NCBI GenBank assembly: GCA_965240325.2
Contig: OZ251232.1
Coordinates: 1,054,001-1,118,000 of the forward strand
Source of the DNA: Rebecca billardiae RCC1528
Taxonomy: Eukaryota; Protista; Haptophyta
Length of the DNA: 64,000 nt
Direction of reading: 5' to 3'
Shown here: piece by piece, positions 5,342 to 63,152 of the stretch
Layout of the letters: each line of letters opens with the position of its first letter
Numbering within the stretch: the stretch's first letter is position 1
Made by a program: the position numbers and the translations under genes
The notes under the pieces: model-generated
The model's input: the letters and a program-made list of their open reading frames with translations, nothing else
The model's database searches: none
Told to the model about the DNA's origin: nothing

Positions 5342-5399
5342 TACAGTTTACTAAGTCTAAGTAAGAATAAGAGACGCACACAGCTCAGGCAGGCGAGAT
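5342..5399 (+). repeat. Short dispersed repeat TACAGTTTACTAAG..AATAAGAGACGCACACAGCTCAGGCAGGCGAGAT (copy 1)
   Basis: Near-identical to 63105-63152 (+) and 45550-45700 (-, interrupted). Confidence 0.85.
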
Positions 5400-5536
5400 T
5401 ATGTATCATACTAACATACGCGGTATAGTATTTAATACGTTATAATCGCGCGTGTACGAACAGCGCGACTCGAACACGTACTAGTCAGCAACTCATTAAA
5501 TAAAGGGCCAACTCACCATATTATAACTGTCAGGCG

Positions 5537-5780
5537 AGAGAGAAGGTATTACCTACTCACCAGGACAGTTTACCCCCGGCCGCCGCGCCGTCACAAAATG
5601 GCCGGCACTCGCAGGTCATTTTCGCGCATCCGCGCACACCCTCCATCCCTCCCGCCCCTCCGAAATCACCGGTGTTTGCCACCCGAAACGAGACTGGCAA
5701 ATGCCGGTGATTTTCGCGCTGAAAACCATGCTTTCACAAGCGAAAATTTAGACGCCACTTCGATACACTGCGCGCTACGA
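5537..5780 (+). repeat. Left terminal inverted repeat (244 bp)
   Basis: AGAGAGAAGGTATTACCTACTCACC...CGATACACTGCGCGCTACGA is the reverse complement of 19139-19382. Confidence 0.97.
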
Positions 5781-5854
5781 GGCCAGCCACCACCCAACCG
5801 CCATAGTGGCGAGCGGGTGGTCGGTGGCTAAATAATTTCTGCGGTGTGTTAAGT

Positions 5855-6172
5855 ATGAAGACCACCTTCACGACCGTCGAGGATGGTCGCATGGGCCCGG
5901 AGAATCCAGCCGAGCTCAAGGGCCTGTACGCCCACTGTAAAGCATGTGAGAAATACGTGCCCGCACTCGAGATGAACTATCGTCGCAAGAACAAGCGTGT
6001 TTACCGGGCCAAGATCTGCATCGCATGCAACCGGGAGCTGCTCAAGAAACGTCAGGCACTCTGGCGCGAGCGTCATCCTCGGCAAAACAAGGAAGATAGC
6101 AATTCAGATATGCAGCTGAGCACGCACTCGGCGCTGAAGACGGCCGATGGAGGCGGCCTATCGTCCATGTAG
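5855..6172 (+). CDS. Viral small Zn-finger protein (CxxC...CxxC plus basic helix)
   Basis: CKACEK...KICIACNRELLKKRQALWRERH. The ATG at 5855 is preceded by the AT-rich/TGCGG motif; the track's GTG start is at 5846. Confidence 0.6.
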   Translation: MKTTFTTVEDGRMGPENPAELKGLYAHCKACEKYVPALEMNYRRKNKRVYRAKICIACNRELLKKRQALWRERHPRQNKEDSNSDMQLSTHSALKTADGGGLSSM

Positions 6173-6397
6173 TATCTCCAGGTTTTTCTGCAGGCTCGGT
6201 GTCGGGCCCCACAGCAAATGACGGCTGTAGTAAATCCCAGATTTGGGGTTGTTCCAGTTTTTATTCACGCGATGCCTAGCGATCCAGGCCTTTTTGATGG
6301 CATCATCACCATGGTCTATATACGTCTTACCGCCTTTAGCACCAAAATGCACACCCTTGTACTCGTATCGCTTACCCTTGCGGGTCGAAGCTTTCAT
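6158..6397 (-). CDS. Tlr6F-like (DUF5754-type) small conserved protein of PLVs, virophages and NCLDVs
   Basis: STRKGKRY...VHFGAKGGKTYIDHGDDAIKKAWIARH...NW...SGIYYSRHLLW matches the family pattern as I recall it. Confidence 0.8.
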   Translation of the reverse strand: MKASTRKGKRYEYKGVHFGAKGGKTYIDHGDDAIKKAWIARHRVNKNWNNPKSGIYYSRHLLWGPTPSLQKNLEILHGR

Positions 6398-6418
6398 TTA
6401 TATGACATGATTTTTAGT

Positions 6419-8539
6419 CTATGGCGGAGGCGTGAAGAGGTCATAGTCGCGATCGACCTCGGCCTGCGTGATCGCACCTTCGGTGTAGAAGCGCACTGCA
6501 GCACACTTGAATGGACCGCCGCTTGGGGGCGTGCTCGCGTAAATTTCGTTGACATCGCCCACGGCAGTGGCGCTCATGGCCTCAACGCCGAGCGATACCT
6601 TGTTCAACCAGGCCTCCATGTTGCCTCCCACTGTATAAGACCAAGCAATATGATACCAGGTGTTCAGCGGCAAAACATCGACTCGGTCGTATAAATTACC
6701 AGACTGCCCTGTGATATCGAACCCAAACGCGGTGTTCCCAACGCCGTTGCGGTAGATGTAAAAATGAACGACCTTCGAGCCTGTATTGCGCCACTCGAGT
6801 TTGAATGAGCCTGAGACGTTGTCGACATAAACCCACGCTGAGAACCCAAACATCGTCATCGTCTGCGTCGGTACTGGCGCTGTCATCACAACCGAGCTGC
6901 TGAGATCAGCATAGCCATTGGTGTGCGTTGCAGTGCCGCTGGATACAGTGAAAGCATAGCTGCCAACATCATCGGTCAAATTCGTCGTCATCGGCCAGCT
7001 GGCAAATGGATTTAAGCCTTGCATCGGCGAGTACAAATTCATCACCGTCGGCACATCGATGATCCCGCGCGCGATTGTCATGGCATACAGTCGCACGCCT
7101 GCGGTCATAGGCGCGGTTCTGTGCCCGATGATGCTGAGCAGCGGGGTGAAGCTGGCTGGTAGCGTGGTAGTACTCACCAGCACACCATCGATGTACACTT
7201 TGGACGTGGTGCCATCCACTGTTTGCGCAATGTGGTGCCACTCTCCATGTGCCGGTCCTGCCAAGTCCTGAAACGCTGTCGCGCCCAGCTCAGAGCGCAG
7301 CTGGCCACCGATGATCTCGAAAGTGAAGTCGGTGACGCCATCCTCGAGGAGCCACATGCGAACGGCATCGGTGTTATTCGGGCGGTAGGTCCATGCCGCA
7401 AGCGAGAAGCGCTCGCTGCCCTGCATGTCGGGCATTTCATTCAGACCGAGATGCAATGTACTAGTATTTTGCATCTCTAGGTAACCGCTCGTCATCACAT
7501 AATCGCCATTTGTGGGCTGCAGCGCGGCGGCGGCACCGTCTACCTCGAGCAAGTTTCCATCGAGCAACCATGTGTACCGCAGGACATATCCAAGCCACGA
7601 CTGCGCATGCGCCAGGCGGCCGGCCGCATCGAGAGCGTATGGATATATGCTCAGCTGCGCGAGCGCAGCCTGGTCGTCAAGCGTGGCGACGAGTGGGTAG
7701 TAGAGCGAAATCCGCTTGAAATCTGGGTCCGTTTGTTGGCCAATAGTGCGAGAGTGGAGGAGCGTTTGGTCCGCATAGATCTCGATATTCGCCTCAAAAG
7801 AGTTGGTTTCCTGCGAGATGACAAAGTGTGTCCAGACACCGCTTGGGACCATCTGGCTCACGTCGTCTACAAAGCCGACACTGCTACTAGCGATGATGTT
7901 CGAGTCCAGCTCAGCGCTCGCGTACGAGAGCCCACCGCCTAGTGAGAGCTTACTCAGGCCTGGGCAGCCCTTCAGGTAGAAAGCCGCACTAAAATCCCGC
8001 CAGTCGTGCCCCGGTGTCTGGAGCGTGAGCGTGCTCGCATTGGCCGTTGAGCGCGCGGAGTCTTCAGCAAAGGCAAACGTGCCAGCCGGCACGAGGCTCT
8101 GAGCGCGAGGAGTGGTATCGACCAGGTCTGCGGTCAGCGGGAAATGTGCCACTGTGGGGCCAGTGAGCATGGACTGGGTAATCAGATTGCCAGACTCGAT
8201 CGACCCATGATATAGCGTACCCGTGTGATCAAAGCTGGTCAGTAGGCTATCGCCGGAGTACACGCTGAAATAAGGCTTATACTCGTGATCATATTGGCGA
8301 TTCACTACCTTCTCATAATTGTCCGCTGTCCAGACTACAGTGGCGCTCGATGGAGTTATGCTCGCGCTCGTCACAGTGAATATATGCCTGGGATGGGAAA
8401 CCCGTATTTTCAGGTCCTCGTTGGGCAGTGGCGGAACGAAATTGATAGTTATAGACGAGCTTGCTGGGTACGTGAGCACCTCGCCACTCCAGCTGATTGA
8501 TGATGATGATGATGAAACTAGGCCGAAGATGCTCGCCAT
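6419..8539 (-). CDS. Viral LamG/concanavalin-A-like repeat protein, putative fibre/receptor-binding protein
   Basis: 706 aa with three LamG-like units: GVWTHFVISQ..IYAD, GEWHHIAQTVDGTTSKVYIDG and NTWYHIAWSY..AWLN, each preceded by an FSxxAW/FY-like motif. Confidence 0.75.
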   Translation of the reverse strand: MASIFGLVSSSSSSISWSGEVLTYPASSSITINFVPPLPNEDLKIRVSHPRHIFTVTSASITPSSATVVWTADNYEKVVNRQYDHEYKPYFSVYSGDSLLTSFDHTGTLYHGSIESGNLITQSMLTGPTVAHFPLTADLVDTTPRAQSLVPAGTFAFAEDSARSTANASTLTLQTPGHDWRDFSAAFYLKGCPGLSKLSLGGGLSYASAELDSNIIASSSVGFVDDVSQMVPSGVWTHFVISQETNSFEANIEIYADQTLLHSRTIGQQTDPDFKRISLYYPLVATLDDQAALAQLSIYPYALDAAGRLAHAQSWLGYVLRYTWLLDGNLLEVDGAAAALQPTNGDYVMTSGYLEMQNTSTLHLGLNEMPDMQGSERFSLAAWTYRPNNTDAVRMWLLEDGVTDFTFEIIGGQLRSELGATAFQDLAGPAHGEWHHIAQTVDGTTSKVYIDGVLVSTTTLPASFTPLLSIIGHRTAPMTAGVRLYAMTIARGIIDVPTVMNLYSPMQGLNPFASWPMTTNLTDDVGSYAFTVSSGTATHTNGYADLSSSVVMTAPVPTQTMTMFGFSAWVYVDNVSGSFKLEWRNTGSKVVHFYIYRNGVGNTAFGFDITGQSGNLYDRVDVLPLNTWYHIAWSYTVGGNMEAWLNKVSLGVEAMSATAVGDVNEIYASTPPSGGPFKCAAVRFYTEGAITQAEVDRDYDLFTPPP

Positions 8540-8561
8540 ATATTATAAGCCATATAATAAT

Positions 8562-9194
8562 ATGCGTATCACTGACCCGCTAAAGAAGGAGTACACGCAG
8601 TTTAAGGCTGCGCTGCAAAATGCGGGCTTCGCTGACAAGGACAAAAAGATTGCCGGCGTGTATGTGATCCACCCAACATGGGCGGGCAAGAGACCCCTGT
8701 TTAAAATGGGAATGACCAAAAATATTCGGAGTCGGCTCTTCGCGGGATACAGGCACAGCATGCCATACGCAGCGGGCAGCTTCAAGCTGATGGCATTCCT
8801 TGTGACGAGCCCCAACCTGGCCAAAGATGTGGAGGATCGGCTTCTCGCTCGCACGAATCCAGGCTACAGTTTTGTCAAGCCTCTCCGGGATAAAGAGTGG
8901 CGACAAAGCGGGGCACCATGGCCTGAGATTCGGCCGCTCCTGGCTCTGCTCATGGCGGTGGTGCGGAGGCAAACAGAGGGGAACTGGTACGTCTTCAATG
9001 ACAAGGGGTCGATCACTCACAGAGGCGGCAGTCAGCCGGCTGTGGAGCAAACCTCGGTCATCCCTACTGGAGCCATCCGTCGCACGCGTAGCCAGAGAGA
9101 CAGGCGAGCGCAGGTCACAAACATTGTAGACGCCACGAGCGGGCACCCAGTCCGCTCGGCCCACGGGTTCAGGATGCTCAGGCCTCGCAAATAA
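8562..9194 (+). CDS. GIY-YIG superfamily nuclease (T5orf172/MUG113-like)
   Basis: GVYVIH...FKMGMTKNIRSRL..Y..S.P...VEDRL...KEW. ATG at 8562 follows a 22-bp AT-rich divergent spacer; the track's start at 8319 overlaps the LamG gene. Confidence 0.75.
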   Translation: MRITDPLKKEYTQFKAALQNAGFADKDKKIAGVYVIHPTWAGKRPLFKMGMTKNIRSRLFAGYRHSMPYAAGSFKLMAFLVTSPNLAKDVEDRLLARTNPGYSFVKPLRDKEWRQSGAPWPEIRPLLALLMAVVRRQTEGNWYVFNDKGSITHRGGSQPAVEQTSVIPTGAIRRTRSQRDRRAQVTNIVDATSGHPVRSAHGFRMLRPRK

Positions 9195-9208
9195 AACTGC
9201 GCAGTAAT

Positions 9209-9826
9209 ATGAATATCCCCACCATCTCCACCCAGGAAGGCGAGCGCATGCTATTCGATTCGGGGACGACCCTCCAAAAAGACAGGCGCATGTTGCTAGA
9301 AGCATCATACATGACGCGCGAGCAGGCGCGCGAGCACGTAAAGCCGCGGTACCGGCTCGACGTCAGACTCTCGTCTGACGAAGACAAGGTGTTGGTGCAC
9401 ATAGCATCAGGCCGGCCGCTAGTCCTATTTCGAGGCAGTGTCAGCTTTGCCGACTGGGCAGTGTCTGATGTGCTACTCGCGCTCGGCTTCTCTGTATATG
9501 ACCCACGTCACCAGCGAGCCCGCAAGCTGGTCGAGATTGTGCGGCGAAAATATGGCGTGACGTCAGCCATGGGCCACAGCTTGGGCGGGCACCTGGCCGA
9601 AAACTCTGGCGCAGCTCAGGTGCATACATCCCAAAAAGGTGCTGGGTTGAAGGATATCGGGAAGGTCTTACCAAAGACACAATTCGATGTCCGCTCTCCA
9701 GGCGATATCGTGTCGGCACTCTCGCTCACTCAGCGAGGGGGCAGTCGGAAGACGGTCGGGCGCATCAGCGCAGACGCGTTCACGCGCCCAATCCGCTTTT
9801 TACGAGAGCAGCACCGCCTAGCGTAG
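9209..9826 (+). CDS. Viral lipase (class 3-like alpha/beta-hydrolase)
   Basis: VLFRGS..DW..SD, GHSLGG nucleophile elbow, GDIVS, terminal H. Lipases are recurrent PLV accessory genes. Confidence 0.85.
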   Translation: MNIPTISTQEGERMLFDSGTTLQKDRRMLLEASYMTREQAREHVKPRYRLDVRLSSDEDKVLVHIASGRPLVLFRGSVSFADWAVSDVLLALGFSVYDPRHQRARKLVEIVRRKYGVTSAMGHSLGGHLAENSGAAQVHTSQKGAGLKDIGKVLPKTQFDVRSPGDIVSALSLTQRGGSRKTVGRISADAFTRPIRFLREQHRLA

Positions 9827-10111
9827 AAACCGGTCGGCTCTGCGAGCCCCCTGGTCCAGACGGTTGGAGATCTGACGCCCACGCTGTATGGCCCGCCTTC
9901 CCGCGGCCGTATAAGGTGAGGCGATATCGCCGAGGCCTTCGGTGCGATCGACTTCGTTCAAGAATTGGGTGACGTCCCCACCCACCTTGTCTACACAGGG
10001 CTTTAGGTGATGGATTGCAGAGCTGATAGGTCTGCCGAGCCTTCGGGCGGTGTTAGCCAGCCCGCCGATCTTTCCGCGCGCATCTCTAACGAGTCTACCT
10101 AGAAAACTCAT
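9818..10111 (-). CDS. Small basic amphipathic viral protein, putative core/membrane-active virion protein
   Basis: 97 aa, Arg-rich, N-terminal MSFLGRLVRDARGKIGGLANTARRLG. Co-oriented directly downstream of the MCP with a TATATATAC leader. Confidence 0.65.
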   Translation of the reverse strand: MSFLGRLVRDARGKIGGLANTARRLGRPISSAIHHLKPCVDKVGGDVTQFLNEVDRTEGLGDIASPYTAAGRRAIQRGRQISNRLDQGARRADRFLR

Positions 10112-10128
10112 GTATATATAGAGCGAAA

Positions 10129-11442
10129 TTAAATGGCGAAATTAAGCTGGTTCTGTGAGACCTCCATCATCACATCGTGGAGCGCCCAGGCATGCCACTT
10201 GAAAGATGCCCCGCTGTTCGTGTCCGCCTCAAAGATGGCGTACTCCGTATCGAGTCGGCGACCGTCGAAGAGGATGTCCGACTGCGAGAAGGCGCTCGTG
10301 TTGAAGGCGATGCAGAAAGCCGCATCGTCAAAGGCCGTGCCGCTCACGCGAGAGGCATAATCGGCAATGCCGAGCGCGTTGAAGGCGCGAACGAGCTCAG
10401 CGCGCGTCTCTGCGCCGCCGTGGGTGGCAGAGACTGGCTGATCCGGCACGAGGGTAGAGCCGATGCGCAACTGCCACTTGGTGAGCGCCGCTCGCGTGCG
10501 AGTCGTGATGTCGCCACCAAAAGCGTTCTCACTGGTATTCGGCACCGCAGCCAGGATGATCATGTTGACCGAGGCCAGGCGGAACGGCAACTGCCAGGCC
10601 GTCGACGTGTTTGCAGCCACCGAGTGGGAGGCATGGAGGTAGGACATCGATGGGATGTAGATCCGATCGAGCGAGCGAACCATCTTGGTGTAGGCACTAT
10701 CACTAAGCATGACCATGCCGAGCTGCATCTTGACCGTCTCAAGCGTGGGGGAGGTAGTGCCTGGGTCGGCATCATACACGCCAAAGTCGAGCATGTTGGC
10801 CACATGGATGTCAACACGAAGGCCTTGGTGCAGCTCGGAGAGCGGCACCGCCTTACCACACAGAGCGCCAAACACGTACGCGAGTGGGAGGGTAACCGTC
10901 TTCCGGGCATTGTTGGCAATTGTCTCACCGGTTGTCGGGTAAAGCGCGCTCTCAACATCGGCGGCTGCATATGCGGCAGGCATCTCGTAGTCGGCACAGC
11001 CCAGCATGCTGCCGGTGGAGAAGCCTGAAGATGCGCCCGACTGGAAGTCGAGCAAGACATTGTGCAGCAGGCCTGCCTTGCCCGTGCTTGCGATCATCTG
11101 GCTGCCGTGGTAGGCGTCAATGCGCTCGATGCACGAGTATGCAGACCTTGAGAGCGTGAGAGGCTGGCCAGAGGTGTTGTGGATTGTAAACTGCAGGACT
11201 GTCTGCGACGGGTCCATCATCGCGCCGGGCGTGCCAGTCGGGATATCGAATTGCATCACCTGGCCACTTGTGAAGCTAGACGACGGGCCTGCATATATCG
11301 TCGACCTCTTGTAGGCAGCGCCAACGGCGACGGGCTTGGGGTTTGAGAAGTCATAGTAGCTCGGAGCCGTCTCCTCCTGCTCGAGCACCATCGCGTCATC
11401 ACCGCGAATATCGTTCGTCACACGCTTGCCGGCGTAAGCCAT
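10129..11442 (-). CDS. Major capsid protein (double jelly-roll, PLV PgVV-like type)
   Basis: 437 aa. FTSGQVMQFDIP...MMDPSQTVLQF...SAYSCIERIDAYHGSQMI...LLHNVLLD, VPLSELHQGLRVDI, WQLRIGSTLVPDQP and FCIAFN resemble PLV MCP motifs. Adjacent to mCP and ATPase. Confidence 0.88.
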   Translation of the reverse strand: MAYAGKRVTNDIRGDDAMVLEQEETAPSYYDFSNPKPVAVGAAYKRSTIYAGPSSSFTSGQVMQFDIPTGTPGAMMDPSQTVLQFTIHNTSGQPLTLSRSAYSCIERIDAYHGSQMIASTGKAGLLHNVLLDFQSGASSGFSTGSMLGCADYEMPAAYAAADVESALYPTTGETIANNARKTVTLPLAYVFGALCGKAVPLSELHQGLRVDIHVANMLDFGVYDADPGTTSPTLETVKMQLGMVMLSDSAYTKMVRSLDRIYIPSMSYLHASHSVAANTSTAWQLPFRLASVNMIILAAVPNTSENAFGGDITTRTRAALTKWQLRIGSTLVPDQPVSATHGGAETRAELVRAFNALGIADYASRVSGTAFDDAAFCIAFNTSAFSQSDILFDGRRLDTEYAIFEADTNSGASFKWHAWALHDVMMEVSQNQLNFAI

Positions 11443-11467
11443 AAGTACTATGGCCAGGAAATATTTC

Positions 11468-12202
11468 TTAAGAAATTTGGAATTTCAGGTTGACAGACCA
11501 CTCGGCTCCATTCAGCTCCACCGGCTGCATGGTCTCGAGATCGATCAGCTGGAGCTCGATATTTTGTATACTCCGGCGGTTGCACTGCAAAATGTCATTG
11601 TTCGCATCAGTGTACAGTACAGTCTGGCCGAAAGGCTTGTCGATATGCACCACGCACAAAATATTGCTTGATGAGCCCGAGTTGGACGAGTCTCTGCTCT
11701 TGACATCCAACCCTTCGCAGGTTAGCGCAAAGCCTCGGCTGAGCAGGTCCACCACGCCGGGTGCCTCTATACTGCCGCCAGCAGGTATTACCAAGTCTGT
11801 GCGACAGAGGCCGAGCACGCGCGAAGCGCTGCTCGTGCCCTTGATGGTGGTGTCGAAACCATGTGACGTCGAGAATGTAAGCTTGCCAGTGGCCGAGTCG
11901 AAAGCAGCAGTCACGTTGATGCTAGACAATGCCGAGTTGATCTCCGTGACTAGCGTGCTAGCGGTATAATTCTTCGGGGTGAGCGTGAGCGTCGTATCGC
12001 CCCAGTCGGAGGCGGCACCCACGCTATTATTCGAGCTGTCTACGGCATAGCGCGTATTAGGCACACACAGGCTATCGACAGATACAAATATGACCTCATC
12101 GCTTGCCGCCATGATTGGGTGGCTCAGTGTGAAATTCACGCAGCTCGTCTTGGCTCGGCCCAGTGGGAACACATCGCCCTGACTTGTGTGCAGGTGCAGC
12201 AT
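11468..12202 (-). CDS. Minor capsid (penton) protein
   Basis: 244 aa. VSVDSLCVPNTRYAVDSSNN, PKNYTASTLVTEIN, FDSATGKLTF, RVLGL, NILCVV and IQNIELQLID...VELNGAEWSVNLKF are typical of PLV mCP. Confidence 0.88.
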   Translation of the reverse strand: MLHLHTSQGDVFPLGRAKTSCVNFTLSHPIMAASDEVIFVSVDSLCVPNTRYAVDSSNNSVGAASDWGDTTLTLTPKNYTASTLVTEINSALSSINVTAAFDSATGKLTFSTSHGFDTTIKGTSSASRVLGLCRTDLVIPAGGSIEAPGVVDLLSRGFALTCEGLDVKSRDSSNSGSSSNILCVVHIDKPFGQTVLYTDANNDILQCNRRSIQNIELQLIDLETMQPVELNGAEWSVNLKFQIS

Positions 12203-12315
12203 GAATTAGTGCCGATATTATTTCATCATCGCTCGTGCCTAGCTTCTTGGAGATGTACCATGCCAATGCATCCTCTCGGCTGAAATCCAAAATATTCTCT
12301 GCTTGCATATAGAAG

Positions 12316-12648
12316 ATGGAGAATAAAAAGACACGCAGCGAGGCGCAGCAGCTGGCGACGGAGCGCATGCGCCTGAAACGCCAGGTAGTGACCTATGAGA
12401 CACATGCGGCCACATACACCAAGCTGGCAGAGGATGCGAAAGCCAAGCTCGAAGAAATCGGCGGCGAGGTCGGGCCAAAAGCACCCACACCCAGGCGCCC
12501 GCCAAGCAAGACGCCGCCGAGCATTGTCAGGCAGCCGGTCGAATCGATCGAGCTGGCAGGCGAGGAAGAGGCGACCCCGGAGGCGGTGACCCCGGAGGCG
12601 GTAGCCCCGGTCAAGCCATCCCAAAAAAGAATCATGCGCTTTATATGA
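12316..12648 (+). CDS. Viral hypothetical protein (basic helix plus Pro/Glu-rich tail) upstream of the ATPase
   Basis: 110-aa ORF with AT-rich leader; its stop overlaps the ATPase start (ATGA). Confidence 0.65.
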   Translation: MENKKTRSEAQQLATERMRLKRQVVTYETHAATYTKLAEDAKAKLEEIGGEVGPKAPTPRRPPSKTPPSIVRQPVESIELAGEEEATPEAVTPEAVAPVKPSQKRIMRFI

Positions 12649-13334
12649 TCAACGAGATCGCGCACCACATAGAGCTCCCGCTGCCTAGAATTAGTGCCGA
12701 CAAGCCTCTAAAGCCAGGCCTACCAGAACCACTCCCTAACACGAGTTTTCATTGGGGCATCTTTGGCCCACCACGCAGCGGCAAATCCAGCCAGGTAGTG
12801 GGCCTGATCACTGGCCCCTATAAACGAGTCTTTGCCAACGTAATCTTCGTGGCTCCTCGCACCTCGGTGGACAGCTTCCAAAATTCCCCGCTAGCCACGC
12901 TTCAATATGTATACCACGAGCTGACGGCAGAGACACTTCAGAATGTGCTCAGCATTGCCGAGTCGAATATGCCTTTGCCGACCCTCCTTATTATAGATGA
13001 TTTTGCTGCGTCACTAAAAGACCCAAATTTGCAGCGCCTGTATTCGCGTATCGTTCAGAACAGGCGACACTACAAACTCAGTATCATTGTTATATCACAG
13101 GGTTACATATCGGTGCCGCTGACTATACGAAAATTATTCTCGCATGTGACCGTGTTCAAGCCCAACAATACCAAGGAGCTAGAGGCTCTGCGCTCTGAAT
13201 TGATCATGATGCCTCGCTCAGACTTTGCTACAGTGTATCAGTACATTTTTGGCGATGGCGATCCGCACACTTTTTTATTTCTTAATGCAGACCATGGTGC
13301 GCTCCACAGAGAGTGGAATAAATTATTACTATGA
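12645..13334 (+). CDS. A32/FtsK-like DNA packaging ATPase
   Basis: Walker A GPPRSGKS, Walker B LLIIDD, arginine finger NRRHYKLS, ISQGY..VPLTIRK. Confidence 0.93.
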   Translation: MINEIAHHIELPLPRISADKPLKPGLPEPLPNTSFHWGIFGPPRSGKSSQVVGLITGPYKRVFANVIFVAPRTSVDSFQNSPLATLQYVYHELTAETLQNVLSIAESNMPLPTLLIIDDFAASLKDPNLQRLYSRIVQNRRHYKLSIIVISQGYISVPLTIRKLFSHVTVFKPNNTKELEALRSELIMMPRSDFATVYQYIFGDGDPHTFLFLNADHGALHREWNKLLL

Positions 13335-13340
13335 TTATAG

Positions 13341-14261
13341 ATGCAGGCCATACATCGCGAGCGATTCCTGCCGACCAAGACCACGCACTTTCGCCTCGAG
13401 GGCAAACCCTACGGCGGCTCCTTTCACAGCCGCGGAAAAGAATACTGGAGCGGAGCCGTGCCTACGCCGTCTTCGAGACGATTGACGTATTCGGCCGAGC
13501 CGATTGTGATGAAGCCACTAATCAAGCCAACGCGACCGCCGCCCACCAACCAGACGGCTGCAGTGGGCAGGCGAGTGCCTTCCATCGATGCGCTGCTACC
13601 CTTTAGCGATGGTGTGAACGAATTTCGGGCTCGGCAGATTCGCCTGCCTACACGCGATGCGTCTGGCCAAGCAATGAGCAGGCTGATAGTCAACAAGCAG
13701 CCTCTGCCTGTCTCTACAAGTGCCGTGCCAGAGCGGCGATCGATTGGTATTGGGACAGACAGAGTCGCTCGGGGCCTGCGCCCAGAGCAGCATTCTACTG
13801 GCATGCAGGCTGGAGGCCCAAAGAGACGGTCGATTGCTACTCAGGAGATGCCTCCTCCGGCTGAACGCCCGGCGATTGGCACGCAGGCTGGTGGCCCAAA
13901 GAGGCGTTCAACTGGTACTCAGGGGATGCCAGAGCGCCCGGCGATTGGCACGCAGGCTGGTCCGAAGAGACGCTCCATGGGGACACAGGAGCAGCCATCC
14001 CAGCAGACGGCTGGCACCCAGGCCTCAAAACCACTCTTCGGAAATGAAGCCAGAGACCACCTTGACGACAACATCGATGCCATCATACTCATGATGCAGG
14101 CCAACCCGAAAGAATCGCGCACAGCTCTGAGCAAAATGCTGGCCAGAGATTTTAACGTCTCTGAAAATGCGGCGAAGGCATTCCTCAAGGTCATTCCTTA
14201 CGATCCCACACCTCGGTTCTCTTCGCCGTCGTCATCCTTCAGCCCGTCGAGCAAGCTGTGA
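13341..14261 (+). CDS. Viral hypothetical protein with eight short repeats (e.g. RRSIATQ, RPAIGTQ) and a small helical C-terminal domain
   Basis: 306-aa ORF that fills the gap between the ATPase and pPolB; repeats at ~13730-14025. Confidence 0.7.
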   Translation: MQAIHRERFLPTKTTHFRLEGKPYGGSFHSRGKEYWSGAVPTPSSRRLTYSAEPIVMKPLIKPTRPPPTNQTAAVGRRVPSIDALLPFSDGVNEFRARQIRLPTRDASGQAMSRLIVNKQPLPVSTSAVPERRSIGIGTDRVARGLRPEQHSTGMQAGGPKRRSIATQEMPPPAERPAIGTQAGGPKRRSTGTQGMPERPAIGTQAGPKRRSMGTQEQPSQQTAGTQASKPLFGNEARDHLDDNIDAIILMMQANPKESRTALSKMLARDFNVSENAAKAFLKVIPYDPTPRFSSPSSSFSPSSKL

Positions 14262-17200
14262 CGAACTCGTTCATTATTCGGTTGGCCCATTTGAGGCTCA
14301 CGTCGTAGCCAGACTCGTCGACCATGATTTGCGCTGCCTTCCTTGCTGTGAGCGTGTCCCAATCATGTGTCTGAATAATTCGCTCAAAGTGTCTCCTTGG
14401 ATCGAGCTTGTAGTGGCCCAGCGATAGGATCTCCAGCCCGTTCGCAGCCACGACACCCTTGTTGTACGAGTTTCGGAGGGCCACCTTCTCTTGGCGTTCC
14501 ATCCTCACCACGTTCGAGCGCGCCGCAATCTGGTAGTAGTCCACGTGTGTCTCCCTCTCGCGGAGGACGATATCGCGATAGTGACCATGTTGCAGTGCTT
14601 TCGTCACCACTTTGTATGGCACGCCCTTGTTCTTGCGTAGCTGTTTCTTTGTCGATCTGACCGAGTAACATTTCGGCGCGTTGCACACCACCTCGCAAAT
14701 GCGGTCGTTGGCGAACTCGTCCTTGAAGTAGCCGACCACTTTCTGGTTCGAGGCATCATGCATCGGGTTGCGCTTGTGGTAGCCATGCATATCAAGCCAG
14801 CGCGGCGCGAGCTCTTTCATCTTGTGCTTGTAATTCTTGTCGTTCACCGAGAAGATGAAGGAATCGGTATCGGTCATGCAGAGCTGGATGTTTGGAAGCG
14901 CCGGCTTGAGGCCATCGTACCAAAAGGTCTGCATGAGCAGCTTCGAGCTCTCAAGGATGAGCGCGCCCAATTGAACAGGAGTAGTCTTGAGGTAGCGCTT
15001 CTTGTCACCAGAGACGAGAAAGAGCGAGCCGCCGATATGCCTCGAGTACCGGCTGCGCGGGTCGAGGAAGCGCTTCTCCATCACACTCCCAGAGACGATG
15101 CCGGCATCCTGGTGGTGCAGCGTGCGCTCCATGGTTTTTCCAAAGCACGAGTTCGGGCCTAGTTTGAAGAAATTCTTCTCAAAGTCGTTTCTCGCCTGGG
15201 CGCGCAGCGCAGCCATCTGGTCGACATAGCCGCGCATCCACGGTGCTAGATGCATCTCTAGCACGCGATGGACCTTTGTCACGACAAAGCCGAGCTCGAC
15301 TGCCTTCTGCAGATTCAGCACACTGCACACATAGTTGACACGTGGGTCGAGGTGCGCGATGAGCTTGCCGTCACGGTGTTCGGGCAGCGGGACAAAATCG
15401 TTGAGGTGCTGGTGCGTGTGCTCCGGGAAGTAGCCATCGATCTCCACATACGCTCCGATGTCTCCTTGGAAATCGAGGTCGCCGGGGTCACTCGGTAGCC
15501 GCCCATACCGGGGGTCGTGCAGGTCAAAGTCCTCGGGCTCAACATCCCAGGGCGCGCCTACTGGCATCTTGAGCTTCATCGCCCAGCCGTACAAGTTGTT
15601 CGCGTCAAAGTAGCCGATGTGCACGCCTCCTCCTGCCGTCTGCAGCTTGTGGCGCACATCTGTGTAGCCGCCTCGAATGCACTTGGAAGCAAAATCCACG
15701 TCTCTCGAGTCTTGCCAGAGCTCGATCTTTTGCCCCGTGGTCTTGAGCATCGTCTTGAAGAAGGATTGCGGCGCCGAGAGAAACCAGCTCGGGTCCAGGC
15801 CAAAGTTGGTGTGAAAGAGGTGCTGGAAGTTGGTGAAGACGTCTGCCTGCCCGTGAACGTCGATAGCGAGGTACCAGTCGAGGAGGTCTCTCATCGTCTC
15901 CAGCCCGACCGCCGACTTGAGTTGCACGAGCTTGACGATCGCCTCATCCTCGCCCGCCTCAAAGTGTTGGTCCTGGCCTGCGATACCGAAGCTCGATTTA
16001 AGCTTGGACAAGAAGAGGTCGGGGTATTTTTCGATGAGCGTGTCGATGGGCGTATCCAGCTCGAGGTGCCACGGAATCTCGTAGGGGAAAATGCCCTTGC
16101 GCCGCGCGGCCTCGAATACGATTTCTGGGTCGAGTCCTCGGGCCCGCGCCCAATCGCTGGCAAACGAGCGCAAGTTCCGCATGTCCGCGGGGTCCAGGTT
16201 GTCTAGGAGCGTCTCCAGCGATTCTTTCATGAAAGCCATCGTGTCCTTGAAGCAAAAGCCGCCGATAGTCAGCTGCTTGAGTCGCTGCGTGTTCTGGAGA
16301 ATGATGTCGGTTTTGAGCGCTTTGGTGGGGCGCGTGCTCGCGAGCTCGCGCTCGAGGCTGGTGATTTGCGCAGTGTCATAGTTGTCTCCTCTTACTGCGC
16401 ACGAGACGAGAAGCGCCTCCTGCGCCTCGATCCTTTTCTTGAGGATCTCCGTTTTGCGGTTCTGCTTTATCCTGGCCATCTCGTTCATCAGCCCTTGCAC
16501 CCGCTCGGAGCCGAGGGCCTGGATCAGGAAATTGGCGTCAAAGCCGGTGAGGTTGTGAAAGAATACTGGTACGCTCGCCATGAGATTCGTCGTGGATGCA
16601 TGCAGGTTGCACTTTGTGCAAGCAGCACCGCGATATGCGCCAGTGTAGTGGTCATGGTCGAAATTTTTGGTCTCGCCGAATTCGCCGTCGCAGAGGTAGC
16701 AGCAGGTGGCACTATCGAAAGCCTGCCTTGTCTCGAGAGGGAAGGAGCGCTTCTTGAGCGCAGAGTGCCTGCTGGCAGTATCCAGGTAGCTCGGGTATGT
16801 CTCCAGCAGGTAGACCACCAGATCGATATGGCACTCAGGCCCGGTGAAGGTCACGTACTTGATGGCTCCGTCGCTCCAGGTCTCAATGAGGCCGACGGCA
16901 TATGGCCTCATCTCACCATCGATTGTCACGGTCTCGAAATCGGCGTGGATCACCAGCGGCTTGACGATCTGCTCGATGCCTCCCGTGTACTCGATAGAGG
17001 TCTGGTAATCTTTGCCGGCCGCAGCCTCGCGAGGCGTCATGTAGCTGGCTAATTTTTGCTCCTCAGTCTGAGCATCGTAATTCACTGTCCACGAGTCATG
17101 GCACGTCTCCTGATGCTCATCTCGCTTGGCGCGAGCGTTGAAGGGGAACTTTTTGAGACACAGCTCGCAGTAGATATAGGTGGTATTTGCGCAAATGGCA

Positions 17201-18513
17201 TCGGCGGAGCGGCAGAAGACCCAGTGCTCCTTGTAGAGCCCGAGGGTCACCCGAGGCAGGTTGTGGAAATCCTGCGGCGTCGGCAGTCGCATCACCTGCG
17301 CCTGCCCACCGTCCTCGGGGAGGCGATAGGCTGTGATGGCCAGGTTGTTGGCGACCTCCCATGCGCGGATCTCGCCGATGTCCACAGGGTAGACAGCACC
17401 CTCGGGCTCGGTCACGAGGAACTTCCGGTGGACGCTCGGCCGCTCGGGGTGGGCAACGCCGCTCTCCACAGCCTTTGCTGCCTGCAGCGCGGCCATGAAG
17501 CACTTGAGGTCTTGGTTCTTGGGGTTGACGATGCCCATCTTGGCGTTCGCCCACCGCCCTTCGAGCTTCACGTAGCTGCTCCCGGATGTCGCTCCGCGAG
17601 GCGTCACCATGCCGCTGGTTATCCACATCCGGCTGAGGGCGATTGGCTTGTCTGCGTAGATTGACTGCCGCTGCTCGAAGGCGTCTGTGATCATCTCGTT
17701 GACGAGATCGATGAGCGGCTGCGGCTCCTGCTGCCAAACTGCTTTGCCGGCAATGGAGCGACTTGACTTCGAGATGGTGGGGTGCCCTCGTTCGATCATG
17801 CGGCGGTAGGCGTCCTCGGGCAGGCCCGGCATCTCGACCGCAAAGACACCCTTGGTGCTCTTCACATGCAGCGTCTCGATGATGACCCTCACCTTGAGCC
17901 GACTCGATGCTCCGCGCATCAGCTCCTTCTCGATCGTCTCAGCGACAAAGTCGTGGATTGCGCTTGTCAGATGCGACGGCATCTGGTAGAGCGCTTGCTC
18001 TCGCATGAGCAGAGGCGCCGTCGCCTCCACCTGCATCGAGATTGGCATGGTGAAGGTCGTCTCCTTGGTGATCTCCGGCCCATGCACAGCCACCCTGGTC
18101 ATGCCATCATTCAGCATCTTGGCGGTGAAGCCGATCTGCTTGCGCAGCTTCCTCATGCCCTCCGATGTGCGAGGTAGTCGCCTCTTGCGCCCTTGGAGCG
18201 TGAACTGCCCGTCTTGGAGCTCGATGCCCATCGCCTTCAGCTCTGTCTCCATAGGCTGGTGCTTCTCAAGCCTCTCGAGCGTGCGGCGTAGCTGGTCCCA
18301 GCTCTTGCGCGTTCTGGGCATGCGCTTTCGCTTGCCCTGCAGCACGAAGGTCTTGCCATCGACGTTTGGCGTCAGGTTGAACTCGGCAAAGAGCCTCTCG
18401 AGACGGTCTCGGTCGAGCTCGTGGCGCGCGGCGGCATGCCGCCTCATGGGCAGCTCGGGGTCGAGGAGTACCTGCTCGAGTTGGTTGCGGCGGTCAAGGT
18501 CGAGGATGACCAT
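14239..18513 (-). CDS. Protein-primed family B DNA polymerase (terminal-protein region, OTU-like protease, Zn finger, exonuclease with inserted endonuclease VII-like domain, polymerase)
   Basis: 1424 aa. ExoI HADFET, ExoII FHNLTGFDANF, RKGIFPYE, ExoIII YLAIDV, IRGGY, YFDANNLYGWAM, KLGPNSCFGK, MTDTDS, GYFKDE, KCYS, KGV. Confidence 0.96.
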   Translation of the reverse strand: MVILDLDRRNQLEQVLLDPELPMRRHAAARHELDRDRLERLFAEFNLTPNVDGKTFVLQGKRKRMPRTRKSWDQLRRTLERLEKHQPMETELKAMGIELQDGQFTLQGRKRRLPRTSEGMRKLRKQIGFTAKMLNDGMTRVAVHGPEITKETTFTMPISMQVEATAPLLMREQALYQMPSHLTSAIHDFVAETIEKELMRGASSRLKVRVIIETLHVKSTKGVFAVEMPGLPEDAYRRMIERGHPTISKSSRSIAGKAVWQQEPQPLIDLVNEMITDAFEQRQSIYADKPIALSRMWITSGMVTPRGATSGSSYVKLEGRWANAKMGIVNPKNQDLKCFMAALQAAKAVESGVAHPERPSVHRKFLVTEPEGAVYPVDIGEIRAWEVANNLAITAYRLPEDGGQAQVMRLPTPQDFHNLPRVTLGLYKEHWVFCRSADAICANTTYIYCELCLKKFPFNARAKRDEHQETCHDSWTVNYDAQTEEQKLASYMTPREAAAGKDYQTSIEYTGGIEQIVKPLVIHADFETVTIDGEMRPYAVGLIETWSDGAIKYVTFTGPECHIDLVVYLLETYPSYLDTASRHSALKKRSFPLETRQAFDSATCCYLCDGEFGETKNFDHDHYTGAYRGAACTKCNLHASTTNLMASVPVFFHNLTGFDANFLIQALGSERVQGLMNEMARIKQNRKTEILKKRIEAQEALLVSCAVRGDNYDTAQITSLERELASTRPTKALKTDIILQNTQRLKQLTIGGFCFKDTMAFMKESLETLLDNLDPADMRNLRSFASDWARARGLDPEIVFEAARRKGIFPYEIPWHLELDTPIDTLIEKYPDLFLSKLKSSFGIAGQDQHFEAGEDEAIVKLVQLKSAVGLETMRDLLDWYLAIDVHGQADVFTNFQHLFHTNFGLDPSWFLSAPQSFFKTMLKTTGQKIELWQDSRDVDFASKCIRGGYTDVRHKLQTAGGGVHIGYFDANNLYGWAMKLKMPVGAPWDVEPEDFDLHDPRYGRLPSDPGDLDFQGDIGAYVEIDGYFPEHTHQHLNDFVPLPEHRDGKLIAHLDPRVNYVCSVLNLQKAVELGFVVTKVHRVLEMHLAPWMRGYVDQMAALRAQARNDFEKNFFKLGPNSCFGKTMERTLHHQDAGIVSGSVMEKRFLDPRSRYSRHIGGSLFLVSGDKKRYLKTTPVQLGALILESSKLLMQTFWYDGLKPALPNIQLCMTDTDSFIFSVNDKNYKHKMKELAPRWLDMHGYHKRNPMHDASNQKVVGYFKDEFANDRICEVVCNAPKCYSVRSTKKQLRKNKGVPYKVVTKALQHGHYRDIVLRERETHVDYYQIAARSNVVRMERQEKVALRNSYNKGVVAANGLEILSLGHYKLDPRRHFERIIQTHDWDTLTARKAAQIMVDESGYDVSLKWANRIMNEFVTACSTG

Positions 18514-18713
18514 TCTTACTCTGGCGCAGAAAATTTTCGTCGAAAACTAACGCACTTTGGTCCGCCGCTGGCTCGGCCCCCAAGTCCTAAGTTTTTTCCG
18601 CGGATGGCGGGTCGGCGGCTGAGGGTCGGCGGCGGCCGCCCGGGATGCCGACATCGTCGCGCGAGCTCGGCCCAAGTCTTAAGTGCGGATCGAAATATGT
18701 TTTGGGGATGGTC

Positions 18714-19029
18714 GGCCTCTCTAAAGTTGAGACCCGAAGCTTCGCCGGCATGGTCGCCTTTTTTTACTGGTGGGGGCGCTGGTCTGTCCTGGTGGAAAAA
18801 CCTGGCGGAGTGCTCGAAGTGGCCTCTAAAGTTGAGACCCGAAGCTTCACCGGTAAAATCATGGTCGCCTCGCGAGTTTTTACTGGCGGGGCGCTGGTCT
18901 GTCCTGGTGGAAAAACCTGGCGGAGTGCTCGAAGTGGCCTCTAAAGTTGAGACCCGAAGCTTCACCGGTAAAATCATGGTCGCCTCGCGAGTTTTTACTG
19001 GCGGGGCTCTGGTCTGTCCTGGTGAAAAG
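18714..19029. repeat. Subterminal tandem repeat, three units of ~105-115 bp
   Basis: CTCTAAAGTTGAGACCCGAAGCTTC recurs at 18719, 18824 and 18939. Confidence 0.92.
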
Positions 19030-19138
19030 CGAGATCCGGAAAGCTTCGGCCTTGGATCACTGGTAGTTCTTGGCCGGCTCGCAAGCTTCGGCCTTGGAAC
19101 TGAGCTTCGGCGGCCGCCCTCGGTTTGTCTTGGCGGGA

Positions 19139-19382
19139 TCGTAGCGCGCAGTGTATCGAAGTGGCGTCTAAATTTTCGCTTGTGAAAGCATGGTTTTCAG
19201 CGCGAAAATCACCGGCATTTGCCAGTCTCGTTTCGGGTGGCAAACACCGGTGATTTCGGAGGGGCGGGAGGGATGGAGGGTGTGCGCGGATGCGCGAAAA
19301 TGACCTGCGAGTGCCGGCCATTTTGTGACGGCGCGGCGGCCGGGGGTAAACTGTCCTGGTGAGTAGGTAATACCTTCTCTCT
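19139..19382 (-). repeat. Right terminal inverted repeat (244 bp)
   Basis: Reverse complement of 5537-5780. Confidence 0.97.
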
Positions 19383-19433
19383 CAGCCGCCATAGTGCGGG
19401 CGACGTGCCCACGGCCCACAATCCACATGCGCG

Positions 19434-19619: not shown

Positions 19620-20075
19620 TGAGATTGGTACGGTTGGTACCCCGGGCGCGGGCCGCATGCCAGGTCCGCGCGGCTCTGTGGGCAAGCGAGCCAAGGGGCG
19701 CAGCGAGTCCGGTGCCGGCTGTCGTACGGGGAGAGCGCGAGCGCGATCTGGGTAACCACTAACCTGACAGTTAGAATAGCCAATAGGGGTTCGGCCCTTT
19801 ACTATCGCAACCGCCTTACCCGCCCGCCTCGCTTCATTAATTGACAGTACGTATGGATATCGTTGATACATTATTGGTTGATGTGCGTTTGAGTGGTACA
19901 GATGGTACAGAACAACACAACAGAAGAGCTCGTCGTCCAAAAATAAATGGCTAAGCGCCGTAGAACTGCTGATGAATACGGATATTCATTCGCTGCGCCT
20001 GATCTAGAGCGCCCTCGGCGTTGAGATCTAGATCACGCGGCTGCGCGCCCAGCGGTGCCCCTCCGCGCCCTCGCT

Positions 20076-29000: not shown

Positions 29001-29071
29001 CGACCGGCGCGTCTCGGCCGGCGCCGCGCTGCTCGTCGACGGCAGCGCCTCGCTCGACCCCAACCAGCCGG

Positions 29072-29108
<37 letters not shown>

Positions 29109-32100: not shown

Positions 32101-33614
32101 GGCTCGGCGCCCGCGAGCTGGCGCGGTGCGCGGGCGGGCGCGCCGGCGGCGGCGGGCGCGCCGCCGCGCACGCGCCCCGACGCCGACGCCGACGCCGCGC
32201 CCTCGCCGCGCGGGCCGTTCAGCCAGCACACGCCGCGCTCCGACCGCGCCGTCACACCGGTCACACCGCAAGCGCCTCCTGACCAGCCGACGGCCGGCGC
32301 GCCGCCGCAGCCGCGCTGGGCCGGCGAGACGGCGGGGGCCGGCGCCGCGGCGCACGCGCACAGCGGCTCGCCGCGTGCCGCGGCCGTGTGCCCCTCGCCG
32401 CGTGAGGACGCCGCCGAGCCCTCGACCGCGGCGGAGGCGGAGCGCGCCGCGCCGCGCCGCGCACGGCCGCCGCCGCCGCCGCGCGACCGCGCGCCTGCGG
32501 CTGCCCACATTTCTCCTGCCGGCTCGGGCTCGGGCGGCACGGCGGCGGGCTCGGAGCCCTCGCCTTCGGCGCAGCCCGCGGCGCTGCGGCCGGGCGCGAT
32601 CGCGCAGGCGCGCGCGCTGCGCCAGAACGGCGCGGCGCCCGCGCTGCTGTACACGTCGTGCCGGGCGCGCGCGCGGCTCCACCCAGAAGAGGCGGAGGCG
32701 GAGGCGGAGGCGGCGGCGGAGGCGGCGGAGGCGGCGGAGGCGGCGGAGGCGGCGGAGGCGGAGGCGGAGGCGGCGGCCGAGGCGGCCGAGGCGAAGGCGG
32801 CGGCGAAGGCGGCGGCCGGGGCGGAGGAGGGCGGCGCGGCGAGCGCGGAGGCGGAGGCGGCGGGCTCGGCGGAGCCCCGCCCACCGCCGCCGGCGACGCG
32901 CCGCTCGCGCTCGCGCAAGCTCCAGCGCGGCCTCGCCGAGCCGCCCACCCCGCCGCCCAACAGCGACGGCCACGCGTCAGCCGGCGGCGCGTGCGCCGAC
33001 TCGGAGCGACGCGCTTACCTCGAGAGCCTCGACCGGATGCTCGAGCTGCGGTCGGCGGGCGGCGCGATCGAGCGGGACGAGATGCGCACGCTCTCGCGCC
33101 TCTTCGCGCCCAAGCCCGTCGCGCTGCCCGTCCCCGCCGCCGCGCGCGCCAGCGCCACCGTCCGCCCGACCGGCTCGCCCGCGACCAACGTGCTTGCAAT
33201 CTCGGGCTATCTCGCGAGCGGCGGCGGAGGCGCGCCCAGCGAGGTGGGGAGCAGCGCGCAGCCGTCGGACGCGGGGCCGAGCGCGGGCGCGGCGGGGCGC
33301 TCGGTGTGCGCGAGCGAGGCGCACGGCGCCGCGCCGCGCCCGCCGAGCCGCGGCCCGAGCCGCGGCGGCAGCGCTGGCAGCCGCGGCAGCAGCTGCAGTA
33401 GCGCGCACGGCCGCACCGGTCTTGTGTTTGGCCCTGGCAGCTGCGGCGGCGCGGGGGGCGGCGCCGCCGTGCAGCGCGCGGGCTGCCGCGCTGAGCTGCG
33501 CTCGCCGCGCTCGCCGCCCAAGCTGGGCTCGTGTGGCCGCAGCGGCAGCAGCGGGAGCGAGCTCGCCCCCTCGCCGCCGCCCTCGCCGCCCAAGCCGAGC
33601 GCGATCCAAACGGG

Positions 33615-33684
<70 letters not shown>

Positions 33685-45549: not shown

Positions 45550-45700
45550 ATCTCGCCTGCCGTGAGGGTGGTGGTTGGTTGGGGGCTGGCCAGGGTAGGG
45601 CTGGAGGCTTCGGCCGCCAGTCTGATCACCCGGAGCCCGTTATAAAGGGGAATTTAAAATGAGCTGTGTGCGTCTCTTATTCTTAGTATCATAAACTGTA
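45550..45700 (-). repeat. Short dispersed repeat (copy 2), split by a 98-bp insertion at 45562-45659
   Basis: ATCTCGCCTGCC | insertion | TGAGCTGTGTGCGTCTCTTATTCTTAGTA..TAAACTGTA is the reverse complement of 63105-63152. Confidence 0.8.
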
Positions 45701-52469: not shown

Positions 52470-52738
52470 TTATTATTAATAGATCAGATAGATGATATAT
52501 ATATATACCGATAGATATTTAGATAGTCTTAATTAGAAATAATACGGTCCGGTACTCGGTACGGCTTGGGCGATGGAGCTGATGAGCGGCGCTGGGCCCG
52601 TGGCGCCCGCTGCGCTCTTGTCGTCCTGTCTTAGACAATATCAGCATCAGTGATTATATTTAGTACCAATAATTAAACCGGCCTCATCACATCATATATT
52701 AACGACGTGGTATGCAACGGGCAGGCGTATGGCGGGCC

Positions 52739-63104: not shown

Positions 63105-63152
63105 TACAGTTTACTAAGAATAAGAGACGCACACAGCTCAGGCAGGCGAGAT
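63105..63152 (+). repeat. Short dispersed repeat (copy 3, uninterrupted, 48 bp)
   Basis: TACAGTTTACTAAGAATAAGAGACGCACACAGCTCAGGCAGGCGAGAT. Confidence 0.85.

What the first reader, a model, noticed from the sequence alone, without database searches (positions are those of the whole stretch)
5537..19382. Intact endogenous Polinton-like virus with no recognisable integrase
Seen: 244-bp TIRs that look identical by eye, AG...CT ends, a 5/6 target duplication (CAGGCG/CAGCCG), and about 12 uninterrupted, tightly packed ORFs including MCP, penton, packaging ATPase and pPolB. No ORF shows DDE/rve integrase or tyrosine-recombinase motifs, and there is no unassigned gap large enough to hold one. Known: Polintons make 6-bp TSDs with an rve integrase, and many algal PLVs use a tyrosine recombinase. 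Inference: a recent, probably reactivatable provirus inserted precisely end-to-end, either by an integrase supplied in trans or by an undescribed route involving its own nucleases or host repair. This is the best candidate for a new system in the window.
Basis: partly seen in the sequence, partly recalled or inferred. Interest (0 to 1): 0.92.

Follow-up and report, generated by a model that had tools for sequence, protein, structure and literature searches.

The report
Integrase-less endogenous Polinton-like virus
An unbroken 13.8-kb virus genome with perfect end repeats sits in the chromosome of a GC-rich, likely algal host yet carries no detectable integration enzyme, so it was likely inserted by an enzyme borrowed from a related virus; integrase-less viruses of this kind are already described in other hosts.

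Summary
5537-19382 is a 13,846-bp element with 244/244-bp TIRs, AGAGAG ends, flanks CAGGCG/CAGCCG and 12 tightly packed, unbroken ORFs. These include a double-jelly-roll capsid (confirmed by fold), penton, A32 ATPase, Tlr6F, lipase, LamG fibre and a full Polinton-type pPolB. No integrase was found by Pfam over 89 six-frame ORFs, nor by custom rve and tyrosine-recombinase profiles built from related viruses, which recover integrases that Pfam misses. Relatives with the same capsid family and gene order carry rve (2 loci) or a tyrosine recombinase (9 loci, one clade), so this lineage has probably lost its integrase. Best reading (about 0.5): a Polinton-like virus inserted by an rve integrase supplied in trans. 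Main rival: capture by host break repair (about 0.27). The target duplication is suggestive only (chance 0.5-3%). 'New system' is not supported: integrated PLVs with no detectable integrase are published (Tetraselmis, Ca_PLV1), with in-trans help already proposed, and one pPolB PLV with no integrase described reactivates. No genome was held, so other insertion sites could not be tabulated.

The parts
5531..5536 (.). left copy of putative 6-bp target duplication (CAGGCG)
   Evidence: 5/6 match to the right copy
5537..5780 (+). left TIR, 244 bp, begins AGAGAG
   Evidence: junction spanned by an X1 contig
5855..6172 (+). 105-aa basic zinc-finger protein, weakly endonuclease-VII/HNH-like
   Evidence: PHROG endonuclease E=5e-4; weak
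6158..6397 (-). Tlr6F (DUF5754), 79 aa
   Evidence: PF19058 E=1e-8; DUF5754 = Tlr6f in PMC12220804
6419..8539 (-). 706-aa LamG-domain protein, likely fibre or receptor-binding
   Evidence: PF13385 E=2e-21; role inferred
8529..9194 (+). T5orf172/GIY-YIG-like nuclease candidate (start probably 8562)
   Evidence: PF10544 E=0.048 on the trimmed domain; not confirmed
9209..9826 (+). lipase (GHSLGG), 205 aa
   Evidence: 30 hits among related loci, best E=1e-10
9818..10111 (-). 97-aa basic protein after MCP; positional counterpart of 135-aa and 115-aa ORFs in L018 and L084
   Evidence: sequence similarity marginal
10129..11442 (-). [quoted passage not shown]
   Evidence: model pLDDT 84; PBCV-1 Vp54 E=2e-18; nearest sequence 37%
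11468..12202 (-). minor capsid/penton, 244 aa
   Evidence: DUF5901 E=1e-6; 59 hits in related viral loci; penton role inferred from position and family
12316..12648 (+). 110-aa charged, Pro-rich ORF before the ATPase
   Evidence: same position as 172-aa and 184-aa ORFs in L018 and L084; no sequence match to the L018 one
12645..13334 (+). A32-like packaging ATPase, 229 aa
   Evidence: PF04665; 15 homologues at 36-41%
13341..14261 (+). 306-aa Arg/Pro-rich repetitive protein, likely core or DNA-condensing
   Evidence: no family or Atlas hit; same position as 256-aa and 261-aa basic ORFs in L018 and L084; role inferred
14239..18513 (-). protein-primed DNA polymerase B, 1424 aa (likely terminal protein - vOTU - Zn - exonuclease with EndoVII insert - polymerase)
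   Evidence: PF03175, PF02945; aligns with Polinton-type pPolBs, catalytic motifs present; domain names from PMC11161782
18719..19028 (.). subterminal 115-bp tandem repeat, partly similar to the inner TIR
19139..19382 (-). right TIR, 244 bp
19383..19388 (.). right copy of putative target duplication (CAGCCG)

Best explanation
This is an unbroken Polinton-like virus genome that encodes its own capsid, packaging and protein-primed replication proteins but no detectable integrase, and it was likely inserted into the host chromosome by a retrovirus-type (rve) integrase supplied by a related element that would recognise its AG-repeat ends. Shown: boundaries, TIRs, gene set, capsid fold, and no rve or tyrosine recombinase at the sensitivity tested. 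Inferred: (1) the linear genome replicates by terminal-protein priming from the TIRs; (2) the lineage lost an ancestral integrase, since capsid-family relatives carry one; (3) a helper rve made a 6-bp staggered cut, one base of which now differs; (4) it could re-emerge without excision, by pPolB copying from the TIRs, possibly during giant-virus infection.
For: Ends are flush, both TIRs are complete to AG/CT, and there is a 5/6 six-base direct repeat (chance 0.5-1.3%). rve-INT typically makes 6-bp TSDs and tyrosine recombinases none; an rve PLV with a one-mismatch TSD is reported (PMC12220804 section 10). pPolB associates strongly with DDE integrases (10.64898/2026.10.13.758929); here 17 of 23 IMG/VR pPolB loci carry rve and 0 of 23 a tyrosine recombinase. 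The two fetched relatives with the same capsid-module gene order carry rve: L018/L025 and L084. Variants of the element in run X1 are synonymous at 27 of 32 listed sites (expected fraction 0.23), so a family under selection exists. In-trans integration is proposed for Ca_PLV1 (PMC11296320).
Against: No helper was seen: there is no rve in the 64-kb window and no genome was held. There is only one insertion site. A mismatch inside a TSD beside 244/244 identical TIRs is itself unlikely (about 2-3% if it arose by later mutation; my estimate), close to the 3.2% chance of any TSD-like pair. Chase et al. found no rve or YR hit within or outside Tetraselmis PLVs (PMC9356565), so a helper need not exist. 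None of the fetched loci falls in the window's own MCP clade, so the integrase status of the nearest kin is unknown.
Confidence: 0.5

Rival explanations
1. The free linear virus genome was captured at a chromosome break by host end-joining repair, and the 5/6 repeat is chance or microhomology.
For: TSD-like pairs occur at 3.2%. The left junction CAGGCG|AGA equals the end of a high-copy host motif (5390, 63143, 45551), which allows a microhomology reading. Tetraselmis PLVs are integrated with no integrase hit anywhere in the data searched (PMC9356565).
Against: Both ends are complete to the last base with no filler. Protein-capped ends should be poor joining substrates (established knowledge, recalled). 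The two flanks may be arms of one small host element (5501-5534 vs 19763-19801), but support is weak: 5 of 500 and 1 of 500 shuffles and 2 of 95 control windows reach the score.
Confidence: 0.27
2. An orphan ORF is an unrecognised integrase or recombinase.
For: Pfam missed every tyrosine-recombinase-like protein of the relatives that was scanned, and the L084 rve. The 210-, 306-, 110- and 105-aa ORFs have no confident fold, and the pPolB N-terminal model failed (pLDDT 33).
Against: Custom profiles find nothing in 1146 six-frame pieces (best E 5-8). Left-out controls score E<=3e-51 for 14 of 14 rve and 1e-7 to 1e-65 for 4 of 4 YR. hhalign probability is 0.1% for three candidates. The orphans are low-complexity and sit where rve-bearing relatives also have orphans.
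Confidence: 0.08
3. The element integrates by its own route, using its T5orf172-like nuclease or EndoVII domain to cut the target and its polymerase to copy itself in.
For: It carries three nuclease-like domains. The family persists under selection.
Against: EndoVII-bearing pPolBs and GIY-YIG genes also occur in elements that have rve. T5orf172 proteins are described as homing endonucleases (PMC11296320). The nuclease identity is weak (E=0.048).
Confidence: 0.08
4. This copy had an rve gene at insertion and lost it afterwards by a clean internal deletion.
For: It explains Polinton-like ends and a 6-bp duplication without a helper. Relatives carry rve.
Against: There is no remnant in any frame, genes abut within 25 bp at nearly all joints, and the TIRs have not diverged.
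Confidence: 0.07

Closest known systems
Tetraselmis striata PLVs, pDNAP group G4 / Tsv-S3b (PMC9356565; 10.1101/2025.10.09.676808)
   Same: Endogenous, TIR-bounded, Polinton-like pPolB, PLV capsid module; no rve or YR hit in the 2022 study and none described for S3b; S3b is reactivated and packaged on giant-virus infection.
   Different: Green-algal host, 18-19 kb, TIR 583 bp, 16 genes; no TSD is mentioned in either text. Sequence kinship to the window was not tested.
Ca_PLV1 / AHEV_PLV1 (PMC11296320)
   Same: Ca_PLV1 is integrated although no integration gene was detected; cryptic or in-trans integration proposed.
   Different: Insect, entomopoxvirus-associated, with highly divergent capsids.
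Maverick/Polinton (Polintoviricetes)
   Same: Full TP-vOTU-exo-pol pPolB with EndoVII insert, TIRs, about 6-bp flanking repeat, AG...CT ends (end motif recalled, not from a call).
   Different: No rve, no cysteine protease, MCP not in PF21738.
Unclassified PLVs IMGVR_UViG_3300021438_000077 (L018/L025) and Ga0209992_10004107 (L084)
   Same: Same MCP family (224 and 281 bits) and module order MCP-mCP-orphan-ATPase-basic protein; L018 also has pPolB.
   Different: Both encode rve; AT-rich; L084 has a helicase-fused replicase; both lie outside the window's MCP clade.
PLV-type MCP genes in Pavlovales (Diacronema lutheri, Pavlovales sp. CCMP2436)
   Same: Closest named MCPs (32-33% identity), in the same 14-row clade (SH-aLRT 97).
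   Different: Their neighbouring genes and ends could not be fetched.

Membership tests
Polinton-like viruses (broad sense) | double-jelly-roll MCP | tested here: met
Polinton-like viruses (broad sense) | minor capsid protein and A32 ATPase | tested here: met
Polinton-like viruses (broad sense) | 14-40 kb genome, often TIR-bounded | tested here: met
   13.85 kb, at the lower edge; 244-bp TIRs
Polinton-like viruses (broad sense) | Tlr6F and lipase accessory genes | tested here: met
Polinton-like viruses (broad sense) | forms virions | not testable with these tools
   needs culture
Maverick/Polinton (Polintoviricetes) | full pPolB (TP-vOTU-exo-palm) | tested here: met
   alignment; the N-terminal fold was not confirmed
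Maverick/Polinton (Polintoviricetes) | rve integrase | tested here: not met
Maverick/Polinton (Polintoviricetes) | maturation cysteine protease | tested here: not met
   no Pfam hit in 89 ORFs; Pfam only
Maverick/Polinton (Polintoviricetes) | 5-6-bp target site duplication | tested here: inconclusive
   5/6 at one site
Maverick/Polinton (Polintoviricetes) | Polinton-type MCP (PF21738) | tested here: not met
   no hit, whereas L004-L006, L008 and L020 hit
PgVV/Gezel group of PLVs | MCP in the PgVV clade | tested here: inconclusive
   no Gezel sequence at hand; D. lutheri MCPs appear under PgVV in Table S4 of PMC10120064 by my column count; whether they are the genes is unknown
PgVV/Gezel group of PLVs | tyrosine recombinase (widespread, not universal) | tested here: not met
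PgVV/Gezel group of PLVs | PGVV05 core gene | not tested
   no profile available
Virophages (Sputnik/mavirus type) | virophage MCP and protease | tested here: not met
   no PF21915/PF22031 or protease hit, whereas L007 hits

The most novel reading that the evidence does not exclude
A lineage of minimal, self-replicating PLVs that has given up integrase yet inserts precisely end-to-end, either as an integration parasite of other Polintons or by an own nuclease-plus-pPolB route with no DDE or tyrosine chemistry; its perfect ends and target duplication would make it the cleanest model for how integrase-less PLVs enter genomes.
Probability: 0.12. Interest if true: 0.75.

Novelty: new member of a known kind. 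Interest (0 to 1): 0.36.

Why it matters
How PLVs without an integrase enter host genomes is stated as unknown in print (PMC9356565; PMC11296320). This element is small, intact and has sharp ends with a near-perfect 6-bp flanking repeat, so tabulating its sibling insertions would separate borrowed-integrase insertion from repair capture. It also adds a divergent capsid lineage (<=37% identity over the full length) joined to a Polinton-type polymerase. The phenomenon itself is not new.

Tried and rejected
No whole genome is held, so copies, empty sites and helpers could not be listed. Single-protein scans of viral contigs with the window's MCP, pPolB and ATPase and with P0013 found no relative; small MCP alignments found none either. 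tblastn against phages: no match for MCP or the nuclease candidate. The single-sequence fold of the pPolB N-terminus was unusable. The Atlas gave no hit for the 306-aa ORF. A GIY-YIG profile from four loci did not detect the nuclease candidate; NCBIfam and PDB sequence searches did not either. The rve profile found nothing in two whole records whose fetched part lacked rve, but these are 74% and 5% complete, the search had no positive control and three others were not held: no conclusion. The 'win:' column and the last three blocks are empty through a script error (a file was overwritten); redone. Depth in X1 was not used as copy number. Alternative boundaries were tested: 5536/19383 gives only 3/4. 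The mimivirus early-promoter word AAAATTGA is absent. Literature searches for the phrases 'lack integrase' and 'lost the integrase' with polinton returned 0 papers, and one search gave nothing relevant; the precedents came from reading PLV papers. bioRxiv supplements (gene tables for D. lutheri PLVs in 10.1101/2022.07.28.501842) were not seen and may bear on the nearest kin.
Full report
Observation. The element runs 5537-19382 (13,846 bp). Its terminal inverted repeats are identical over 244 bp and start AGAGAGAAGG. It is flanked by CAGGCG and CAGCCG, 5 of 6 alike. GC is 57% against 73-76% in host DNA. Twelve ORFs without internal stops fill 93% of the inner region. The only sizeable gap, 625 bp before the right TIR, is mostly a 115-bp tandem repeat. 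One contig of public run X1 spans the left junction (5490-5683) without a difference. No bridge of the right junction was listed, and X1 may not be independent of the assembly.

Gene content. The 437-aa ORF folds with pLDDT 84 and matches the PBCV-1 capsid at E=2e-18, so it is a double-jelly-roll MCP, although Pfam misses it. Its nearest full-length relative is 37% identical. The nearest named relatives are hypothetical proteins of Diacronema lutheri and Pavlovales sp. CCMP2436, which fall with it in a 14-row clade (SH-aLRT 97, quick tree). With the high host GC this suggests a Pavlovales-like haptophyte host (inference). The penton, A32 ATPase, lipase and Tlr6F have homologues in related viral contigs. 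The 1424-aa polymerase aligns with ten pPolB homologues from about residue 200 to near its C-terminus and keeps the vOTU Cys/His, exonuclease and polymerase motifs (domain scheme from PMC11161782, passages). A 210-aa ORF is weakly T5orf172-like (E=0.048).

Is an integrase hidden? Pfam gave none in 89 stop-to-stop frames of at least 70 aa. Pfam is not enough, though: it missed the rve of L084 and all the recombinase-like proteins of relatives that were scanned. I therefore built profiles from relatives. An rve profile of 14 sequences recovers each left-out member at E<=3e-51 and finds nothing in the six frames of the whole window (best E=5); adding two more sequences changes nothing. A profile of 17 proteins that I call tyrosine recombinases from their R-K-HxxR-like-Y motif pattern (my label) recovers 4 of 4 left-out divergent members and finds nothing (best E=7). 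hhalign of the rve alignment to three candidate ORFs gives 0.1%. The orphans are small or low in complexity and sit in the same positions as orphans of rve-bearing relatives. An unknown fold cannot be excluded, since the orphans were not modelled with confidence.

Relatives. Of 23 IMG/VR loci found through pPolB, 17 carry rve and none a recombinase; the six without are partial stretches. Of 48 loci whose MCP scores at least 140 bits on the window-centred profile, I examined 14 (at least 15 kb fetched, plus L018 and L084): 9 carry a recombinase, 2 rve and 3 nothing in the fetched part. The five recombinase-bearing MCPs placed in the tree form one tight clade. The two rve-bearing ones share the window's capsid-module order. 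The capsid family thus normally has an integrase, and this element most simply lost one. The limit is that none of these loci belongs to the window's own clade, for which no gene context could be fetched. In X1, some contigs are identical to the element and others differ by 1.5-5%; 27 of the 32 listed differences in genes are synonymous, against an expected fraction of 0.23 (14 further rows were not shown). A family of variants under purifying selection exists, but whether they are integrated, or carry an integrase, is not known.

How it got in. Flush, complete ends and a six-base direct repeat are what an rve integrase leaves. rve-INT typically gives 6-bp TSDs, recombinases give none, and a one-mismatch TSD is on record for an rve PLV (PMC12220804, section 10). 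The repeat is modest evidence: chance is 0.5-1.3% for exactly this pattern and 3.2% for any TSD-like pair, and a mismatch beside undiverged TIRs is itself unlikely. The flanks may be the two arms of one small host element (5501-5534 and 19763-19801), which would mean a clean insertion, but the support is weak. The left junction also reads as the end of a high-copy host motif, which leaves microhomology open. I put insertion by a borrowed rve at 0.5, repair capture at 0.27, a hidden integrase at 0.08, an own-nuclease route at 0.08 and loss after insertion at 0.07. Replication by protein priming from the TIRs and helper-triggered reactivation are inferred, not shown.

Comparison with what is known. 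It works like a Polinton in replication and ends, but fails membership on rve, protease and MCP type. It is a Polinton-like virus in the broad sense; the group is unresolved. Chase et al. found no rve or recombinase hit in or outside Tetraselmis PLVs, including pPolB-bearing ones, and call the mechanism unknown (PMC9356565, passages). A later preprint reports a recombinase in one subgroup but describes only pPolB for S3b, which is endogenous and packaged after giant-virus infection (10.1101/2025.10.09.676808, passages and section 6). Barth et al. report Ca_PLV1 integrated with no detectable integration gene and propose cryptic or in-trans functions (PMC11296320, passages). In cryptophytes 15-49% of complete PLVs in the rve-type clusters lack a detected rve. 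Other papers seen: PMC10120064 (passages, supplement rows), PMC12721341, PMC8547959, PMC13215967 and 10.64898/2026.10.13.758929 (passages), 10.64898/2026.06.19.733378 (passages, parts 2-4 of 5), 10.1101/2022.07.28.501842 (passages, parts 3-4 of 9; supplements not seen).

Verdict. A real, clean and probably recent endogenous PLV of a divergent capsid lineage, without a detectable integrase. It is a new member of a known kind and a good test case for an open question, not a new system on present evidence. Interest 0.36.

Noticed in passing
window 5362-5399, 63115-63152, 45660-45685, 45551: A 38-bp host motif recurs exactly with different flanks and has word depth about 200 in run X1 against 2-5 for neighbouring contigs; probably the conserved end of a small high-copy repeat.
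   Followed up: partly
window 5501-5534 and 19763-19801: Imperfect inverted arms with TA outside each, bracketing the insertion; possibly a MITE of about 450 bp into which the virus inserted (weak).
   Followed up: partly
window 5831-5843 (+) and 18525-18537 (-): The same 13-bp motif lies 12 bp upstream of both terminal, inward-pointing ORFs (first ORF and pPolB); candidate promoter. 3 matches against 0.12 expected, but the pattern was chosen after seeing it. AT-rich stretches precede most ORFs.
   Followed up: partly
window 57842-58568 and 60649-61374: Another inverted repeat of about 720 bp (98% identical) enclosing about 2.1 kb; two ORFs tested there had no Pfam hit.
   Followed up: partly
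window 20785-34419: 4544-aa host ORF with N-terminal leucine-rich repeats, a very long Ser-Pro(n) tract and a likely membrane-anchored C-terminus (domains read by eye).
   Followed up: no
window 18100-18513 (pPolB residues about 40-130): Twice-repeated basic unit at the pPolB N-terminus, not shared with the aligned homologues.
   Followed up: no
L043:2932-4191, L075:2092-3354: GIY-YIG domain fused to the tyrosine-recombinase-like protein in related freshwater PLVs.
   Followed up: no
L025:10917-11894: A PLV of the same capsid family encodes a GH5 cellulase.
   Followed up: no
window 50143-52475: Tandem duplication of about 1.2 kb at 85% identity.
   Followed up: no
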